This document shows, in pieces, positions 2,608 to 35,493 of a DNA stretch of 64,000 nucleotides. Numbering within the stretch: the first letter of the stretch is position 1; each line of letters begins with the position of its first letter. Made by a program: the position numbers and the translations under genes. The stretch covers positions 1 to 64,000 of the IMG/VR virus record IMGVR_UViG_3300044691_000371, one strand, 5' to 3'. Under the pieces are notes generated by a model that saw only the letters and a program-made list of their open reading frames with translations, did not search any database and was not told the DNA's origin. Source of the stretch: a virus.

Positions 2608-3114
2608 TTAGAACGTGATTATAGTGTAGGACAACCCTTCTAATGCCATTTGTGCAACTGTTGCCGTTAATTGTGATAAATTAGCCGAATATGGAACATG
2701 TATTACTGCATTTACAAAAAATTGTGGTTCATTAAAATTCCGTGCAAAAGCTATCGGTAATTCTCCAAAATTTCGTGCAAATAATATCGGTTGTTCATTA
2801 AAATTTCGTGCAACTGTTTGTCCGTTTCCTGCTTGTGTTATAAAAATACGGTTAAGTACATTATCATACAAATAATTCAAAACATTAGTCAATTGACCTA
2901 CTTGGAATTTACTATTTGCTATCAATCCATTTATTACCCGTTCTGCTTCGTATTGCTGTAATGGCCCTACTAAAGGCTGTAATAGGCATGCACAATATTT
3001 GTATAGCCAATTAACTTTACCGGCTGAATTAACGCTGTAATAAGCCCGTAAGGTTTCATAAAGGCATTTGCCTACATCCAAATGACGAAAACGTACAGTA
3101 GGGTTGTTTGCCAT
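2608..3114 (-). CDS. Putative baseplate wedge subunit (P2 gpI-like position)
   Basis: Synteny after the J-like gene; QVGQLTNVLNYLYD...RIFI pattern; internal 12-aa triple repeat. Confidence 0.55.
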   Translation of the reverse strand: MANNPTVRFRHLDVGKCLYETLRAYYSVNSAGKVNWLYKYCACLLQPLVGPLQQYEAERVINGLIANSKFQVGQLTNVLNYLYDNVLNRIFITQAGNGQTVARNFNEQPILFARNFGELPIAFARNFNEPQFFVNAVIHVPYSANLSQLTATVAQMALEGLSYTIITF

Positions 3115-3118
3115 TTTA

Positions 3119-3913
3119 TTACGAAGTTACAGGATTGAAGACTACCCCTGTCAGTACAGCAGGGTCGTAATTAAAATAACCGCTTCCGAGTGCTACAAAA
3201 TCAGAAAAAGGAACGCTATCTAATGTTGTTCCATCTATAAAAAAGCTTCTCATTCCAGGCACGTTGGTTTGCATGTACTGTTCTAAATCTGTTACGTAAA
3301 ATTCCCCGTTCAATGCAAAAGTATTTTGAAACGTTGTCAAAGCGTTTAATACATTGCTTTGTAAAGTTGGTAAATCGAAACTTGAAAGATAAGTTGCTGT
3401 TGATGTGAAAAATAAAACGTTTCCCGGTACTGAAATTATATTTAATGGCAAATCAAGTATTTCAAAGTTCAACATGTAAGCCTGAAAAGCTGTCAATTGT
3501 GGTGCTGTCAAAGGCGCTAAACCTCCGCTTATTCCGGTCGTTGCAACTTTCAAAAAGAATCCTGATTGTTGAAATGCTGCCTGTGAAATTATCTGTTTTG
3601 TCGTGTCAATAACTGGGTAAATCAAGTTTAAATATGGTGCGCCTGTTACTGGATTTATTGCTTCGTTTATAACTAAGTTATCACCATACTGAAAAGCAAG
3701 TGCAACCCCTGTATAATAAAGTGCTTTTCCGTATCCTTGCTGTGAAATTAAAAGGTTTGTAATTATGCTTTCTGAATTGGCTATTTCGGCAATAACGTTA
3801 TCTAAAACCTGACCAATGGCAATGGCAATTTGTTCATCAATAGCGGTAACGCTTAGATTGGTGAACCCAAGTGCGGCCAAATTATTGTTGATTTGTTGTA
3901 TCGATGAAGCCAT
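3119..3913 (-). CDS. Putative baseplate wedge protein (J-like)
   Basis: ALAFQYGD, LKVA...PLT..QL.AF..Y, NGEF....LE and SGYF motifs resemble Bacteroidota myophage wedge proteins; synteny. Confidence 0.65.
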   Translation of the reverse strand: MASSIQQINNNLAALGFTNLSVTAIDEQIAIAIGQVLDNVIAEIANSESIITNLLISQQGYGKALYYTGVALAFQYGDNLVINEAINPVTGAPYLNLIYPVIDTTKQIISQAAFQQSGFFLKVATTGISGGLAPLTAPQLTAFQAYMLNFEILDLPLNIISVPGNVLFFTSTATYLSSFDLPTLQSNVLNALTTFQNTFALNGEFYVTDLEQYMQTNVPGMRSFFIDGTTLDSVPFSDFVALGSGYFNYDPAVLTGVVFNPVTS

Positions 3914-5457: not shown

Positions 5458-6027
5458 TTATTGAGTTATTACCGTTGATTGGATGTCGCTTGCTTTTGTT
5501 ACTGGATTTATCATTCCTGTTTCCTGGCTTACTGTTGCTGCTGCTGTACCTGTACCTGATGATAAAGCAAGTATATGGGTATGGCCGTTATATTGCTGAA
5601 TTAAATTATTAACTAAGTTTTCAAGTGCATTTATTTTTGTTACCAATGGATTGACTAAAACTAAACCGCCATTATTTCCATCGTTAAATTGCGTATTTTT
5701 TGCTGAAATAAAAAGATTGTTAATTGGCTGAATATAATAATCGCTTACTTGGTCGAAGCTGTCTATCTGGGGTAGTCCGCGATGGTTATCCCGCCATTTT
5801 ACAAGGCAATGCGACCCTATTACTGGAATTTCAAAAATAGTCGCTTGTGAGCCTTTTAAAACGCTTGTGGTGACATTTGAATAAGTTACTTCATTGATAG
5901 TTATATCGACCGTAAAATCATTATTAACTGCGGTTACAATTCCATCTATTAATACAGTTGCCCTTAATTTATTTTCTACAAACTTGTTTAATGCTCTTAA
6001 AAAAGAAAATGAAGTCGTACTATCCAT
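5458..6027 (-). CDS. Baseplate spike (gpV-like); start corrected to ATG 6027
   Basis: OB-fold-like N-terminus (IPVIGSHCLV), NDGNNGGLV, and YNGHTH iron-binding HxH motif. The track's longer start runs through a terminator. Confidence 0.75.
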   Translation of the reverse strand: MDSTTSFSFLRALNKFVENKLRATVLIDGIVTAVNNDFTVDITINEVTYSNVTTSVLKGSQATIFEIPVIGSHCLVKWRDNHRGLPQIDSFDQVSDYYIQPINNLFISAKNTQFNDGNNGGLVLVNPLVTKINALENLVNNLIQQYNGHTHILALSSGTGTAAATVSQETGMINPVTKASDIQSTVITQ

Positions 6028-6054
6028 AGTTGTAAAAGTACAAGTTTTTAAAAT

Positions 6055-6082
6055 AAAAAAAGTCCTACATTTCTGTAAGACT
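6055..6082 (-). terminator. Intrinsic terminator after DUF932-like gene
   Basis: AGTCTTACA-GAAA-TGTAGGACT followed by a T run. Confidence 0.75.
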
Positions 6083-30398: not shown

Positions 30399-32840
30399 CT
30401 ATCCAAGTTTTGGTTTTACTCTTTGGGTTTTAGTTGTGCCTCCTGCTTGCGGTAATCCACGTCTGCGTTGTAGAAATTGCGTATATTCATCTTTCAATGC
30501 TGTTGTGATAAAGTAGCGGCTACAGTTATGTACTAAAATTCCATTTGCAAAAAATTCGTGTTCATCTTCAATTTCCAAATCGTAAACGTTTTTTACATTC
30601 TTTTGAGCATGTTTTTGTTGGGGCGTATTTATACACTGTAAATTCATTGTTGCAAATTGCGCATATTCTTTGTGTGTTTTCAAGTCCCAATTTCCGCCTG
30701 TATGCTGATTTGCAATTGTTAGAGCAAAAACGTTGTTCGATTGTTTTTTTTGTAAATTCCTTATTGCATACTTCGCAATTATATTGTCCATATGTAAGAT
30801 GTCCAAACCCGATATTTTTTGCATGTTGTTTACACCTTTCCCTCTCTGCTTCACTTCGTTCTCGTTTAGCTGCTGCTGGAATTGCTTTTTCGAGAAGATT
30901 TTTAAGCATTTTTGCTTTTTGTTCATCAGTCCATTCTTTACTATGGTCTGACATGTGCTGGCTTTTGGTTTTAAGCTCAAAATTGCTTGTTTCGTTATTT
31001 TCAGGATTGTGATCAATGTGGTGAACAACGTACCCTTTAGGTATTTCCCCGACTTCGCATTCGTATTTATAAACATGTAATCTTGTTTTTCTCCAATTTC
31101 CTTTACTGATTTTAACCCATCCTGAATAATATGGTTGGTCTCTTTTAGTTCCTGTGTACTTAATAAATCTAAATCCGTTATAGGTGATAATTTCTTTTCG
31201 CATACTAAATTATTTTCATCTAAAATACAAAAAGTACCGCAAACAATCAAATATATTTCTATAAAATCTTTTTCCTTAGTGTAAAATTTATGTTCTGGTG
31301 TGCATGTTACTTTAACATCACCTATTTGATATTCTTTAACCTGTCTATATCCATTATTCCAAACATTTAAAACTTTTTTATATCCATTTCTTGTCAAAAC
31401 ATTTTCACCTATTTTAATTTCATCAATTCTTTTATTTCCATTATCGGTCATTATAAAAGTTTCCCCGACAAAACAAGATAACATATGTCCGTACTTCTCA
31501 TAAGTTATACCTGTTTGTTTATCGGTTACTTTTTTAATAATGATTCCACCGTCTACATCTTCCGGCACCATTAAATAATCTTCAATCGATTTGTAACAAG
31601 TTTTATTTATAAAAATCTTCCATCCTAAATATTGCGTTTCTAAAATTTCGTTTATAAATGCCCCGCTTTGCGTTATACTTGGTGCTGACTTTCCAACTCT
31701 ATCAACAACTTTAAATCCTGCATTTTCTAAAACTCCTATGAATTTATCAAAAAATGATCTTCCATTATCATCTGTTGTTGATCTTGCGTTTGCAGATGGA
31801 TCGCCAAATACATTTATAATATCGTTATAATCTTCACGATCTAAATATTTAACTAATTCCATTGCTGCTTTTGCTGCTGTATTGTTTGGTGCAATACATG
31901 GTAATTCACCAATTTGTAATAATGCTTTCCCAACTTTATCAATCATCCAAAGTTGAACTGATACGTATGGGCTAACGTTATTGTCACAACTTACACAATA
32001 AGTAAATCCACGCTGTTTTAGCCCCGGTATTAAGTTAAAATCTATTGTGTGAAGGTTTGTATCAAAACATTTATAAAACGGATTTCCAGGCTTTCTAAAC
32101 CCCCAATTCCCAAGCGTAAACACATTGTAGTAATATGCGTTATTTTTTGATGTTCGATAACTCTCATATAATGCAATACGTTCGTCACTACAGTAAGGAT
32201 TATCTTTATACGTGCCATGGGTTGATCTTACCTTAAATTCTATTTTCCCTTTTGGTGTATCAATTTCGCGTACCCATTTAAAGTTTTTTTCTTCTGTATG
32301 TGAAAACCAATCCTGCCATAGCCAAAAATCAGTATAAGTAACGTCACATTCAGGATTAAAACTAAAATATGTTTTTACTTTTCCTTCGTTTGAACGCAAA
32401 GAGGTTAATATTACTATAAAATCATCCGCTGTTATCTGATTTGCTTCTTCTAACCATGCCCATGATGGATTCGCAAATGATTTTATTTTCTGAACGTCAT
32501 CTAATCCCCTGCCATAAAACGCCCCGCCATTGATACATTTAATTTCTAATGGTGAAGTTGTGAATTTAAAAAATTGTTGCAATCCCCAATTTTCAACTAC
32601 AATTTTAATCATCCCAACCATTGATTCAGAAACTGTATTATAGGTTTTCCTTATTAATAGCCCGCGAAATTTAGGATTAGACATACATTCGATTATGCCC
32701 ATTTGTGCTATCTGTCTCGTTTTGCCATTATCCCTGCCTCCCCAGAGGAAGTCAATATCAAAAACTTCTGGGTCATCGATTAAATGGTGGTAACATGGAA
32801 GGAACTTATCGCGACTGACTGTTATGTTTATTTCTGACAT
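30399..32840 (-). CDS. terL: Terminase large subunit containing an intein
   Basis: Walker A GGRDNGKT, Walker B WLEEA, SFNP, TYKDNPY, RNase H-like C-terminal domain. Predicted 496 aa after splicing. Confidence 0.92.
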   Translation of the reverse strand: MSEINITVSRDKFLPCYHHLIDDPEVFDIDFLWGGRDNGKTRQIAQMGIIECMSNPKFRGLLIRKTYNTVSESMVGMIKIVVENWGLQQFFKFTTSPLEIKCINGGAFYGRGLDDVQKIKSFANPSWAWLEEANQITADDFIVILTSLRSNEGKVKTYFSFNPECDVTYTDFWLWQDWFSHTEEKNFKWVREIDTPKGKIEFKVRSTHGTYKDNPYCSDERIALYESYRTSKNNAYYYNVFTLGNWGFRKPGNPFYKCFDTNLHTIDFNLIPGLKQRGFTYCVSCDNNVSPYVSVQLWMIDKVGKALLQIGELPCIAPNNTAAKAAMELVKYLDREDYNDIINVFGDPSANARSTTDDNGRSFFDKFIGVLENAGFKVVDRVGKSAPSITQSGAFINEILETQYLGWKIFINKTCYKSIEDYLMVPEDVDGGIIIKKVTDKQTGITYEKYGHMLSCFVGETFIMTDNGNKRIDEIKIGENVLTRNGYKKVLNVWNNGYRQVKEYQIGDVKVTCTPEHKFYTKEKDFIEIYLIVCGTFCILDENNLVCEKKLSPITDLDLLSTQELKETNHIIQDGLKSVKEIGEKQDYMFINTNAKSGKYLKGTLFTTLITILKITKQAILSLKPKASTCQTIVKNGLMNKKQKCLKIFSKKQFQQQLNENEVKQRGKGVNNMQKISGLDILHMDNIIAKYAIRNLQKKQSNNVFALTIANQHTGGNWDLKTHKEYAQFATMNLQCINTPQQKHAQKNVKNVYDLEIEDEHEFFANGILVHNCSRYFITTALKDEYTQFLQRRRGLPQAGGTTKTQRVKPKLG
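30525..31475 (-). mobile_element. Intein (317 aa, TerL residues 456-772)
   Basis: Block A CFVGETFIMT, block B CTPEHKFYT, blocks F/G VYDLEIEDEHEFFANGILVHN, followed by Cys+1. Confidence 0.95.
30568..31203 (-). CDS. HNH endonuclease with zinc-finger repeats, nested out of frame inside the intein
   Basis: RLHVY.Y....GEIPKGYVVHHIDHNPENN..SNF......H...H; CEVC, FCSNNC, CAIC, TCSKEC. Frame differs from TerL (offset 1637 nt). Confidence 0.9.
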   Translation of the reverse strand: MRKEIITYNGFRFIKYTGTKRDQPYYSGWVKISKGNWRKTRLHVYKYECEVGEIPKGYVVHHIDHNPENNETSNFELKTKSQHMSDHSKEWTDEQKAKMLKNLLEKAIPAAAKRERSEAERERCKQHAKNIGFGHLTYGQYNCEVCNKEFTKKTIEQRFCSNNCKSAYRRKLGLENTQRICAICNNEFTVYKYAPTKTCSKECKKRLRFGN

Positions 32841-32912: not shown

Positions 32913-34364
32913 TTAGAACGTTACCGCCTTTATTTCGTTGATTAACGCTTGTTTGTCGGTCTCTAACATCGCCATGGTTTGGAATATTTTGTCGCTGAAA
33001 CCGGCTAAACAAAATACTTTACTTTCAGGAAATTGCATTGTGCCTAATCCAGCAAGATCAAACGAATATATGAATGGATTTGCGCCAAATTTTTTATTGT
33101 ACTCTGATAATGGCACTTTAGGTGAATAGTAACCAATCCATCCTTGCATATCGCTAAAGATTAAAACACGTTCATATTTTTTATTAGCGTTTTTAAATAT
33201 GGAATGAAAGTTCGTTCCGTGTCCAACTTTGTTTTGACGTGTAAAATTAGCTGCGAAATCCATTGAATGTTGCGATAACTGATAATGAATGTAACGTGCA
33301 AAGTCTCCAAATTCCATTATATCAGCATTAATTGCCTTTGCTAAAACTATCCCAAACAAAGCCCCTAATTCCGATTTTTTCATGTGCTTTGAGTTTGAAA
33401 CTAAGCTATCCATCGACCCGGAATTGTCAACTGCAACTAATGTATTGCCGTCAAAGTTCAGCGTTTTAATGTTATTACAGCTTATATCGACCGCCTCACT
33501 TAATGCCTGTGTTATTTGACGTGCTTCTTTAGTGCCCAATGCTGAAAACTGTTTGTAAGCTATCAAATATTGAAACGGAAATATCAGCGACTTTTTAATG
33601 AACGATTCGCTTGTCAATGATGCCAATGCCTCTGTTAAAACTTCCGGTGCTTGTGTCATGATGTTTGACAGGTTACGAAGCAAAGCCAAATAACCTATTT
33701 TCTTTTCACGTACAAGGTTAATCCAAACTTCTTTTTTGGCGTTCTCAACATTATCACTTTGCCCCGCTGCTGTTAAACCTGATTCCCACGTATCAACTGA
33801 TTTCAGCGTACCGTTTACTAATGCCTTAATTGCTTCGGCGTTTTTTTCAACTGGTGTAGGGTGAACGATATTAACAACGTCAACAAGTTTTATTGCGTTC
33901 TTTTCGCCGCGGTATTTTGCCAGCTGGTATCCATCAAACTTTTCAAACGCCAATGCAAAGCCGCCTTTCATAGCGTTGGTTACTTTCCCGTTGTTGGCTT
34001 TGTGGTACGACAAAATTTCTGTCATATCATCCGGCCTGTAAATAACTGCATTGTAAAAAGCCTTTGCCCAATCATAGCCGCCGACCTGTATAGCTAATTC
34101 AGATGCAGCAACGTGGCTGATCGAACGCATACCGTATTTTGTACGTGCGTAAACGGCGGCTTGTGCAACGAATTTAGGATTGCATTGAGTAATTAAAGTT
34201 TTCAATCTCGTTAATGTATCGTTTGATTTTTCGTAAAATCCATCGCTTACAAATGAAGTAAGCAATATTGATACTAACTCTAATTCGGCAGATTGCTTGT
34301 GTGATTGCCCACCTGCTTTGTTTTCTACAAGTGCTGTAGATTCTGTTTTTGTGTTAAACTTCAT
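32913..34364 (-). CDS. Ro60/Rsr-like TROVE + vWA RNA-binding protein
   Basis: N-terminal N.AGG, YAR...MRS, FD.YQLAKY, TWE..L, YLALLRNL, FPFQY, vWA MIDAS DNSGSM, GT, SDMQ, GFSDK. Confidence 0.92.
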   Translation of the reverse strand: MKFNTKTESTALVENKAGGQSHKQSAELELVSILLTSFVSDGFYEKSNDTLTRLKTLITQCNPKFVAQAAVYARTKYGMRSISHVAASELAIQVGGYDWAKAFYNAVIYRPDDMTEILSYHKANNGKVTNAMKGGFALAFEKFDGYQLAKYRGEKNAIKLVDVVNIVHPTPVEKNAEAIKALVNGTLKSVDTWESGLTAAGQSDNVENAKKEVWINLVREKKIGYLALLRNLSNIMTQAPEVLTEALASLTSESFIKKSLIFPFQYLIAYKQFSALGTKEARQITQALSEAVDISCNNIKTLNFDGNTLVAVDNSGSMDSLVSNSKHMKKSELGALFGIVLAKAINADIMEFGDFARYIHYQLSQHSMDFAANFTRQNKVGHGTNFHSIFKNANKKYERVLIFSDMQGWIGYYSPKVPLSEYNKKFGANPFIYSFDLAGLGTMQFPESKVFCLAGFSDKIFQTMAMLETDKQALINEIKAVTF

Positions 34365-34394
34365 GATTATTTGATTTTAAAATTTGTTTAAAAT

Positions 34395-34430
34395 AAAAAA
34401 GGCAGTCACTTTTTAGATGTACTGCCTTTA
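34395..34430 (-). terminator. Intrinsic terminator between RNA array and Ro60 gene
   Basis: AAAGGCAGT-N14-ACTGCCTTTTTT. Confidence 0.75.
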
Positions 34431-34436
34431 AATGTT

Positions 34437-34520
34437 ATTGACAAAGAAAATTCAAGAGGGTTTACTGGGTTTCCCCACGAGTTAGAAAGTCGATGTAGCC
34501 CACTTATAACTATTGTCAAT
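34437..34520 (-). ncRNA. Y-RNA-like unit D (84 nt)
   Basis: AUUGACAA UAGUUA UAAG UGGGC UACAUCG [insert with GGG-GAAA-CCC hairpin] AA ACCC UCUUG AAUUUUCU UUGUCAAU. Confidence 0.75.
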
Positions 34521-34524
34521 GTCA

Positions 34525-34597
34525 TTCAGGAGAAAATTGCGGCACGGTATTTTTTTGCATTTTCGAAGCGAAGTAACCGTATTGCTAACTACCTGAA
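34525..34597 (-). ncRNA. Y-RNA-like unit C (73 nt)
   Basis: UUCAGG UAGUUA GCAAU ACGGU UACUUCG [12 nt] AAAAAAAU ACCGU GCCGC AAUUUUCU CCUGAA. Confidence 0.78.
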
Positions 34598-34603
34598 ATA
34601 TTT

Positions 34604-34744
34604 ATTGTTGGAGAAAGGCTAAAAGAGTATTTTTTCTGTCCTGGGTACTACCACTATACTATACCCGAATTAATCGGATAAGAAGATTCGAACTCCTGTC
34701 ACAGGTTTGGTATCGAAGTAACTCTAATTATAACTACCAACAAT
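34604..34744 (-). ncRNA. YrlA-like Y RNA (unit B, 141 nt) with circularly permuted tRNA-like domain
   Basis: Same scaffold plus 34640-34705: CCUG UGAC, T arm AGGAG-UUCGAAU-CUUCU, closed acceptor stem UAUCCGA-UUAAU-UCGGGUA, UA, D arm GUAU-AGUGGUA-GUAC, C, CAGG. Confidence 0.85.
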
Positions 34745-34749
34745 GATTC

Positions 34750-34818
34750 TGTAAGGGAAAGTTTTGATCGCGTGTTTTTTCATTTACATCGAAGTAACGC
34801 ATTCAATAGCCACTTACA
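34750..34818 (-). ncRNA. Y-RNA-like unit A (69 nt)
   Basis: UGUAAG UGGCUA UUGA AUGCGU UACUUCG [9 nt] AAAAAAC ACGCG AUCAA AACUUUCC CUUACA. Confidence 0.75.
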
Positions 34819-34860
34819 AATTTTTATATCTTATCAAAGAACTATGCCCTAAATCGTTTT

Positions 34861-34893
34861 CAAATATAAAAACTTTTATCATTACAAAACAAA
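34861..34893 (-). promoter_or_regulatory. Promoter of RNA array / Ro60 operon
   Basis: TTTG-21 nt-TATATTTG, 42 nt upstream of unit A. Confidence 0.65.
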
Positions 34894-34923
34894 TTTATTT
34901 TAAAATATTTTTACTTTTGTTTA

Positions 34924-35493
34924 ATGAATGAGCAAAAGCTATTAATCAATATCTTAATCAGAACAAGTAATAGACCTTTATCCTTTGCAAAATGTTTGCA
35001 ATCAGTGGTAGATCAGGATTATCCTAATATTCGAATAATTATTGGAATAGACAATCAAGGGGCTTTACGTTACATTCCAAAAGGATTAGAAGTTTACCCT
35101 GTAAGTGCTGATAAATCGGTAAAATATTTTTATGATCTGTATATTCCACAACTATTGCAATATGTAGAAGACGGTTACGTGCTAATTTTAGATGATGATG
35201 ATCGGCTTAATCCAAATGTGTTATCTAAATTGCAATTAGAAGGCCCAGGATTAATCGTTCAACTTCAAAGACAAAATACTATCGTTCCAAAAGATTTATT
35301 CTTTAAACGCGGTGGAATTGGCTTTCCTTGCCTTATCTTCCATCATTCATTGAAAAACGAATATCCTATTCATGGTGAAGGTGCAGGAGATTACTATTTT
35401 ATAAAATCCGCCTTATCAGATTTTCCGTTTCCATTTTTCCCTATCATTGTTGTTTATAGCCCATCTAAAGGCAATGGTAAATGTAATGGTTAA
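34924..35493 (+). CDS. GT2-family glycosyltransferase
   Basis: INILIRTSNRP...CLQSVVDQDYPN; ILDDDD; GDYYFI. Confidence 0.8.
   Translation: MNEQKLLINILIRTSNRPLSFAKCLQSVVDQDYPNIRIIIGIDNQGALRYIPKGLEVYPVSADKSVKYFYDLYIPQLLQYVEDGYVLILDDDDRLNPNVLSKLQLEGPGLIVQLQRQNTIVPKDLFFKRGGIGFPCLIFHHSLKNEYPIHGEGAGDYYFIKSALSDFPFPFFPIIVVYSPSKGNGKCNG

What the first reader, a model, noticed from the sequence alone, without database searches (positions are those of the whole stretch)
34640..34705. Circularly permuted tRNA mimic inserted in array unit B
Seen: the order is anticodon-stem 3' strand (CCUG), variable loop UGAC, T arm with UUCGAAU, a 7-bp acceptor stem closed by UUAAU, U8-A9, D arm with AGUGGUA, then CAGG. 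The Y scaffold replaces the anticodon loop and there is no CCA end. Established: this is the YrlA topology. Inference: an unchargeable tRNA elbow with no anticodon loop that could engage elbow-binding proteins. It also supports reading the three sister units as Y RNAs.
Basis: partly seen in the sequence, partly recalled or inferred. Interest (0 to 1): 0.75.

Follow-up and report, generated by a model that had tools for sequence, protein, structure and literature searches.

The report
Phage Y RNA with inside-out tRNA
An uncultured soil phage encodes, just upstream of its Ro60-type RNA-binding protein, four small structured RNAs. One carries a tRNA look-alike written in rotated order, a design known since 2014 as YrlA, so this is a real but largely expected element in a diverged form.

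Summary
It reads anticodon-stem strand, variable loop, T arm, a 7-bp acceptor stem closed by a loop, UA, D arm, and the partner strand.

It is not chance:
- A strict pattern scan found it once in the 84.8-kb genome and never in 2000 random genomes.
- A covariance model built without the window hits only this site (E 4.7e-7).
- Related loci keep the fold, with compensatory changes in 13 of 15 pairs.

The module sits inside the second of four tandem Y-RNA-like units, 240 nt upstream of a phage Ro60/Rsr gene on the same strand. That is the published YrlA layout: a Y RNA whose effector end is a circularly permuted tRNA. YrlA is already known from bacteria and phages and has a crystal structure.

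Three YrlA features are not met:
- Rfam's YrlA model RF02553 gives no hit.
- The GNCGAA motif is absent; a GUAG...GUUACUUC handle stands in its place.
- The usually conserved D- and T-stem sequences are replaced by other base pairs.

I file it as a diverged variant of a known kind. This scan has met similar RNAs on other DNA before. No transcript or binding data could be obtained.

The parts
34640..34705 (-). Circularly permuted tRNA-like module: AC-stem strand, variable loop, T arm, closed 7-bp acceptor hairpin, UA, D arm, AC-stem strand
   Evidence: Direct reading. MFE of the isolated module. Leave-window-out model R2 E 4.7e-7. 0 of 2000 random genomes. Covariation in homologues.
34605..34743 (-). 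Y-like unit B (139 nt). Closing helix UUGUUGG-U-AG / CU-CCAACAA, stem II AGAGU/ACUCU, handle motif GUUACUUC, and the tRNA-like module as its head.
34749..34819 (-). Y-like unit A (71 nt), same handle, short head
   Evidence: Compensatory GG:CC versus AG:CU against L001.
34524..34598 (-). Y-like unit C (75 nt), same handle, short head
34438..34519 (-). Y-like unit D (82 nt), variant motif GCUACAUC, head with a GAAA-loop hairpin
34395..34429 (-). Hairpin followed by a U run, between unit D and the rsr start (terminator- or attenuator-like)
   Evidence: Direct reading. Kept in L001 with two compensatory pairs. Missed by the consensus scan because its loop exceeds 8 nt.
34861..34893 (-). Candidate promoter of Bacteroidota type (TTTG ... 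TAnnTTTG) ahead of unit A
   Evidence: Direct reading. The consensus comes from my own knowledge, so this is inference only.
32913..34364 (-). Ro60/Rsr ortholog (483 aa, TROVE plus vWA)
   Evidence: Pfam TROVE 1e-16. Best solved relative is Thermus phage phiLo Ro60, 9KOP/9L5Y, E 2.3e-25 over residues 17-476.

Best explanation
Unit B is a YrlA-type Y RNA of a phage.

Its 5' and 3' ends pair into a bulged helix with a conserved handle (RG-U-AG ... GUUACUUC on the 5' side, UUUCUC on the 3' side). This helix most likely docks the phage's own Ro60/Rsr ring. Its distal end folds into an L-shaped tRNA look-alike with a sealed acceptor stem and no anticodon loop.

The four units are probably made from one promoter as a single precursor and then cut apart. 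Rsr would bind each handle. The tRNA elbow of unit B would then tether the ring to a host protein that recognises tRNA shape, or to an exoribonuclease such as PNPase. This would redirect RNA decay or RNA quality control during infection.

Shown here: the sequence anatomy, its conservation and covariation, and its linkage to rsr.
Inferred: transcription, processing, Rsr binding, the L-shape, and the identity of the partner.
For: Context: the module lies about 240-340 nt upstream of a TROVE/vWA Ro60 gene on the same strand, in a phage (terminase and portal; an 84.8-kb virus record).

Conservation: rsr relatives of 33-88% identity in viral contigs and Bacteroidota MAGs carry modules of the same order beside rsr on the same strand.
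- 13 of 15 pairs show changes on both sides.
- 97% of cells are paired, against 33-47% when partners are slid.

Link to published YrlAs:
[quoted passage not shown] PMC12135203 names these phages as carrying Y-like RNAs.
- Rfam YrlA RF02553 hits the relatives' modules at E 3e-6 to 5e-4, below gathering.

Handle: GUUACUUC occurs 1-4 times beside rsr in all 18 viral loci. Closing stems were 9/9 paired in 12 of 20 anchors, against 9.9% of shuffles.

Literature: the YrlA architecture and its tertiary contacts. A phage Ro60 binds two upstream Y-like RNAs and host PNPase in vitro. The crAss001 TROVE gene is transcribed early.
Against: - No transcript data: no RNA run holds the stretch.
- Rfam RF02553 gives nothing in the window or the genome even at E <= 10.
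- The GNCGAAN0-1G motif of published YrlAs is absent.
- The D-stem and T-stem sequences that Wang et al. regard as the likely effector site are replaced here. The window has GUAU/GUAC and AGGAG/CUUCU. Most relatives have GCUC/GAGC and NNNGG/CCNNN.
- Folding energy does not favour the cloverleaf in the full unit.
- About half of the related loci have handles but no detectable tRNA module, so the module is dispensable for the system.
- The phage has no RtcB or RNA ligase, so an RNA-repair role would need host enzymes.
Confidence: 0.85

Rival explanations
1. A decoy or sponge that works without Rsr. The sealed tRNA elbow would soak up a host factor that binds or cuts tRNA, such as a defence nuclease, RNase P or a modification enzyme. 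The Y scaffold would serve only as a stable carrier.
For: The phage has no tRNA genes of its own. The fold-defining tRNA nucleotides are kept while the stems drift. The 7-bp acceptor stem matches the RNase P substrate precedent of M. smegmatis YrlA.
Against: In all related loci the module lies inside a handle-bearing unit beside rsr, which argues for joint action with Rsr. With no anticodon loop it cannot distract anticodon nucleases. No defence or counter-defence gene was linked to it here.
Confidence: 0.08
2. A remnant of tRNA genes: the T arm and 3' acceptor strand of one decayed tRNA abutting the 5' acceptor strand and D arm of the next, or a tRNA-derived phage attachment site.
For: Tandem tRNAs do score with such models (L008 5451-5526 and L020 7081-7158). 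Chen et al. warn of this artefact.
Against: The two acceptor strands pair 7 of 7, and this hairpin covaries across loci. No anticodon arm lies on either side. ARAGORN finds no tRNA in the genome. No tyrosine integrase is present. The module is framed by a paired Y scaffold.
Confidence: 0.02
3. A true permuted tRNA gene that is circularised and re-cut into a working tRNA, as in some algae and archaea.
For: The order of segments is that of a permuted tRNA. Wang et al. raise processing as a possibility for some YrlAs.
Against: There is no anticodon loop. The 4-bp stem opens into a 15-nt/11-nt internal loop and then the Y scaffold. No bacterial enzyme for such processing is known.
Confidence: 0.01

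Closest known systems
YrlA (Y RNA-like A) of bacteria and phages. Chen et al. 2014, PMC4201824; structure PDB 6CU1 in Wang et al. 2018, 10.1101/312249; Rfam RF02553.
   Same: - Encoded beside Ro60/Rsr on the same strand.
- A terminal stem formed by the two RNA ends.
- The head is T arm, closed acceptor stem-loop, UA, D arm, with no anticodon loop and no CCA.
- T-loop and D-loop nucleotides, a pyrimidine at the end of the variable loop, and a possible Levitt pair are all kept.
   Different: - No RF02553 match.
- No GNCGAAN0-1G motif; a GUAG...GUUACUUC handle instead.
- D and T stems have other sequences, with pairing kept.
- It is one of four tandem units rather than one of two.
- The host range is a Bacteroidota-type phage.
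Thermus phage phiLo Ro60 with Yrl1 and Yrl2 (PMC12135203; PDB 9KOP, 9L5Y)
   Same: A phage Ro60, and the window's best solved relative (E 2.3e-25), with Y-like RNAs encoded directly upstream. These are proposed to recruit host PNPase.
   Different: Yrl1 and Yrl2 were defined by a CGAA motif. The term 'tRNA-like' does not occur in that paper's text. There are two units, not four.
Salmonella YrlB and other short Y RNAs
   Same: Units A, C and D resemble them: a Ro-docking stem with a small head and no full tRNA domain, encoded in tandem with a YrlA-type RNA.
   Different: The conserved motif differs. Binding here is untested.
tRNA-Y chimeras of native tRNA topology, seen here in crAss001 (L022 5672-5815)
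   Same: The same GAGUUACUUC motif and the same tRNA core, next to a TROVE gene.
   Different: There the acceptor stem is open at the RNA ends and the motif sits where the anticodon arm would be. That is the inverse connectivity of the window's unit B.

Membership tests
YrlA-type Y RNA (Chen 2014 / Wang 2018) | Encoded within 4 kb of a Ro60/Rsr ortholog, on the same strand | tested here: met
   The module at 34705-34640 (-) and rsr at 34364-32913 (-). TROVE 1e-16. phiLo Ro60 E 2.3e-25.
YrlA-type Y RNA (Chen 2014 / Wang 2018) | Order T stem-loop, acceptor-like stem-loop closed by a loop, D stem-loop; no anticodon loop; RNA ends form the Ro-binding stem | tested here: met
   Direct reading and script. 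MFE of the module. Closing helix 9/9.
YrlA-type Y RNA (Chen 2014 / Wang 2018) | Nucleotides of the tRNA tertiary contacts: T loop UUCRANY, two D-loop guanines, UA between acceptor stem and D arm, pyrimidine at the end of the variable loop, Levitt pair | tested here: met
   UUCGAAU, AGUGGUA, UA, variable loop UGAC ending in C with G at position 15. The contacts themselves were not probed.
YrlA-type Y RNA (Chen 2014 / Wang 2018) | Strongly conserved D-stem and T-stem sequences | tested here: not met
   The window has GUAU/GUAC and AGGAG/CUUCU. Among 20 distinct related modules, the three variable D-stem pairs each keep the GCUC/GAGC pair in 14-15, and pair 52:62 is G:C in 19. Pairing is kept by double changes.
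YrlA-type Y RNA (Chen 2014 / Wang 2018) | GNCGAAN0-1G motif near the 5' end | tested here: not met
   No match anywhere in 34430-34830. The units carry GUAG...GUUACUUC(GA) instead.
YrlA-type Y RNA (Chen 2014 / Wang 2018) | Significant match to a YrlA covariance model | tested here: inconclusive
   The authors' own models are not held. My model R2, built without the window from relatives plus CcrColossus, gives 31.2 bits, E 4.7e-7, as the only hit. R2 descends from a first model that did include the window.
Rfam RF02553 (YrlA) | Score at or above the gathering cut-off of 69 bits | tested here: not met
   No hit at E <= 10 in 34300-34950 or in the whole genome. Relatives, CcrColossus and Bacillus phage G reach only 30-42 bits, so the curated model is narrow.
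YrlA-type Y RNA (Chen 2014 / Wang 2018) | Bound by Rsr; carries tRNA-type modifications (TruB, DusA) | not testable with these tools
   Needs immunoprecipitation and modification mapping. No RNA run holds the locus.
tRNA (Rfam RF00005 / ARAGORN) | Contiguous cloverleaf with an anticodon loop | tested here: not met
   No tRNA in the window or the genome.

The most novel reading that the evidence does not exclude
The array is a modular display system: one Ro60-docking handle carrying interchangeable heads.

The window's tRNA head would belong to a second, unrecognised class. That class has a G-U-R-U D stem, an ARUGGUA D loop, a short stem directly after the D arm, and then an A run.
- Rfam's YrlA model gave no hit for the two tested, the window's and L037's.
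- It co-occurs with the canonical head in two Bacteroidota rsr loci (L025, L037).
- It would dock a different host partner than canonical YrlA.

Units may be reshuffled by recombination at the shared GUUACUUC motif. This could explain why two phages with 88% identical Rsr carry different heads on the same scaffold.
Probability: 0.15. Interest if true: 0.55.

Novelty: new variant of a known kind. Interest (0 to 1): 0.3.

Why it matters
[quoted passage not shown] A phage version may help narrow what the partner reads.
- It keeps the tRNA core nucleotides but swaps the conserved D- and T-stem sequences.
- It carries a different Ro-docking handle.
- It sits in a four-unit array.

It also shows that the curated Rfam model misses this whole branch, which is found in Bacteroidota and their phages.

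The principle itself, a Ro60-tethered and circularly permuted tRNA mimic, is established, including in phages. This scan has met similar RNAs on other genomes. The gain is therefore incremental.

Tried and rejected
- Rfam at gathering over the window gave nothing. An E-value scan of 34300-34950 gave only noise. RF02553 on the whole genome gave nothing.
- I first concluded that Rfam holds no YrlA family.
- ARAGORN found no tRNA.
- My first loose pattern was too permissive, at 0.27 hits per random genome. I replaced it with a strict one.
- Folding energies are uninformative, with z between -0.35 and -0.71.
- No RNA holder was listed among sequencing runs.
- Model R3, built for the window's D-arm type, found no further members beyond its four training sequences. 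The 'second class' therefore rests on n = 4.
- The sigma-70 and terminator scan was not informative for this low-GC, Bacteroidota-type DNA.
- Chen 2014's supplements and the 2020 Annual Review were not held.
- The tandem-tRNA remnant, attachment-site and true permuted-tRNA readings were rejected; see the rival explanations.
- Nearest isolates: blastn against phage records gave only a 15% partial hit. tblastn showed no cultured phage above 31% Rsr identity.

Full report
**What is there.** The minus strand from 34705 to 34640 reads CCUG, UGAC, AGGAG-UUCGAAU-CUUCU, UAUCCGA-UUAAU-UCGGGUA, UA, GUAU-AGUGGUA-GUAC, C, CAGG.
- In tRNA numbering, U8, A14, G18, G19, A21, G53, U54, U55, C56, A58 and C61 are all present.
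- The last variable-loop base (C) can form a Levitt pair with G15.
- There is no anticodon loop. The 4-bp stem opens into a 15-nt/11-nt internal loop.
- ARAGORN and Rfam's tRNA model find no tRNA in the window or in the whole 84.8-kb genome.

**Chance.**
- A loose structural pattern was not specific, at 0.27 hits per random genome.
- A strict pattern copying what is observed gave one hit in the genome and none in 2000 first-order Markov genomes.
- Model R2 was built from 13 modules of other loci, without the window. It hits only this site in the 64-kb window, at 31.2 bits and E 4.7e-7. R2's alignment came from a first model that had included the window, so a slight circularity remains.
- Nearest-neighbour energy is neutral. 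The isolated 74 nt gives the four-way junction as its MFE, but z is -0.35.
- In the full unit a competing CCUG/CAGG hairpin makes the tRNA-like fold 2 to 3.6 kcal/mol worse than the MFE. These energies do not count tertiary contacts.

**Surroundings.**
- The window is a phage: a large terminase with an intein, and a Mu-type portal. The record is an 84.8-kb virus, about 90% complete.
- ORF 32913-34364 (-) is a Ro60/Rsr ortholog, with Pfam TROVE 1e-16 and a vWA_Ro60 trace. Its best solved relative is the Ro60 of Thermus phage phiLo, E 2.3e-25 over residues 17-476.
- Upstream on the same strand lie four back-to-back units, spaced 4-6 nt apart: A 34819-34749, B 34743-34605, C 34598-34524, D 34519-34438.
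- Each unit closes with a helix of about 7 bp, a bulged U, then AG:CU or GG:CC.
- Each has the motif GUUACUUC (GCUACAUC in D) 10-11 nt after the GURG of the bulged helix, and UUUCUC/UUUCCC on the 3' side. Unit D has UUUUCU there instead.
- Unit B alone has a long interior, and that interior is the tRNA-like module.
- A hairpin with a U run (34429-34395) separates unit D from the rsr start.
- A Bacteroidota-type promoter consensus lies ahead of unit A. This is my reading only.

**Relatives.**
- Eighteen viral contigs encode Rsr at 44-88% identity. Fifteen genome contigs, mostly Bacteroidota MAGs, encode it at 33-58%.
- GUUACUUC occurs one to four times beside rsr on its strand in all 18 viral loci, and in most MAG loci.
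- Among 20 strict anchors, 12 have a perfect 9/9 closing helix of unrelated sequence, against 9.9% in shuffles.
- Permuted tRNA modules start about 15-20 nt after the start of the motif in L001 (two), L002, L004 and L005 (two each), L010, L015, L024, L025, L026, L027, L031, L034 and L037. L008 also has one, 171 nt downstream of rsr.
- Across 20 distinct modules, 13 of 15 pairs change on both sides. 97% of cells pair, against 33-47% with slid partners, and no shuffle reaches the covariation score.
- That alignment was fitted to the model and contains one tandem-tRNA false positive (L008 5451). A hand-specified structure on a MAFFT alignment gave the same result.
- About half of the loci have handles but no detectable module.

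**Link to the known family.** Chen et al. 2014 describe YrlA as a Y RNA encoded near Ro60 on the same strand. Its centre is a T stem-loop, a variable acceptor-like stem-loop, and a D stem-loop. They found it in 254 bacteria and 22 phages.
- Wang et al. 2018 solved the domain. [quoted passage not shown] Those phages are cited as carrying Y-like RNAs.
- Rfam's YrlA model RF02553 hits the relatives' modules and those two phages at 30-42 bits, E down to 3e-6. None reaches the 69-bit cut-off.
- RF02553 gives nothing for the window even at E <= 10.

**How the window's copy differs.**
- Its D stem is GUAU/GUAC and its T stem AGGAG/CUUCU.
- Among the 20 related modules, the three variable D-stem pairs each keep the GCUC/GAGC pair in 14-15, and 19 have G52:C62. 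Every change is compensated, so pairing is under selection but the sequence is not.
- The GNCGAAN0-1G motif is absent.
- A similar D arm (GUGU or GACU stem, ARUGGUA loop, short stem, then an A run) recurs in L024, L025 and L037. In the last two it sits beside a canonical module. A model of this type found no more members.
- The closest relative, L001 (Rsr 88% identical), has five units and two modules. Its unit on the same scaffold carries a quite different head.

**Mechanism.** By analogy with Rsr-Y RNA-PNPase particles and with phiLo Ro60-Yrl-PNPase, I take the handle helix to dock the phage Rsr. I take the tRNA elbow to tether it to a tRNA-shape reader or a nuclease of the host.
- The phage has no RtcB, RNA ligase or integrase.
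- A Cytophagales chromosome has rsr, then modules, then an RNA ligase. This echoes the RNA-repair context of Salmonella.
- The 7-bp acceptor stem allows RNase P cleavage, as in M. smegmatis YrlA. 'No CCA' therefore holds for the gene only.
- No expression data were obtainable.

**Verdict.** The element works like, and is evidently related to, YrlA. It fails three family features: the Rfam cut-off, the GNCGAA motif, and the conserved stem sequences. I call it a diverged variant of a known kind, of modest interest. Earlier notes of this scan report comparable RNAs in other phages.

Noticed in passing
L022 5672-5815 and about 5926-6062 (Bacteroides phage crAss001, MH675552.1, the unannotated gap after TROVE gene gp96): These look like tRNA-like RNAs of native topology. 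There is an open 7-bp acceptor stem (GGAGGGA/UCCCUCC), UA, and a canonical D arm. An insert of about 70 nt carrying GAGUUACUUC then sits where the anticodon arm should be, followed by a T arm. Rfam's tRNA model matches over 144 nt (46.6 bits), and ARAGORN finds nothing. This is the inverse connectivity of the window's unit B. No paper in the held library links crAss001 to Y RNAs.
   Followed up: partly
L001 2419-2922 compared with window 34819-34438: The closest relative has five units and two tRNA-like heads. The window's unit B shares its closing helix with L001 unit B, but its interior aligns better with L001's extra unit. This hints at unit gain or loss, or at recombination at the shared GUUACUUC motif.
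   Followed up: partly
L037 2001-5468 (Cytophagales MAG, 1.87-Mb contig): Here rsr is followed by two strong tRNA-like module matches (plus one weak) and then an RNA ligase (PF09414 plus the PHA02142 OB domain). This is an rsr, Y RNA, RNA-repair arrangement in Bacteroidota.
   Followed up: partly
L009 2549-2837, L012 2645-2918, L011 4460-4647: Handle-bearing units whose perfect closing helices enclose 150-250 nt with no tRNA module and no Rfam match. Their content is unknown, and the long spans could also be chance pairings.
   Followed up: no
window 34395-34429 (-): A hairpin plus U run lies between the last Y unit and the rsr start codon. It is kept in L001 with two compensatory pairs. If it terminates, rsr needs read-through or its own promoter.
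   Followed up: no
L019 2875-3652 (Caulobacter phage CcrColossus): Four module matches lie upstream of Ro60. One (3071-3173) shares its T arm with the annotated tRNA-Gln at 3038-3105.
   Followed up: no
window 30399-32840 (-): The large terminase carries an intein (Hint and intein-splicing domains). Another report of this scan already covers it.
   Followed up: no
window units A-D, 5' halves: The handle, GUAG followed some bases later by GUUAC, recalls from memory the upper-stem and loop motifs of vertebrate Y RNAs. This is untested. The E <= 10 Rfam scan of the array returned only four unrelated families and no Y-RNA family.
   Followed up: no
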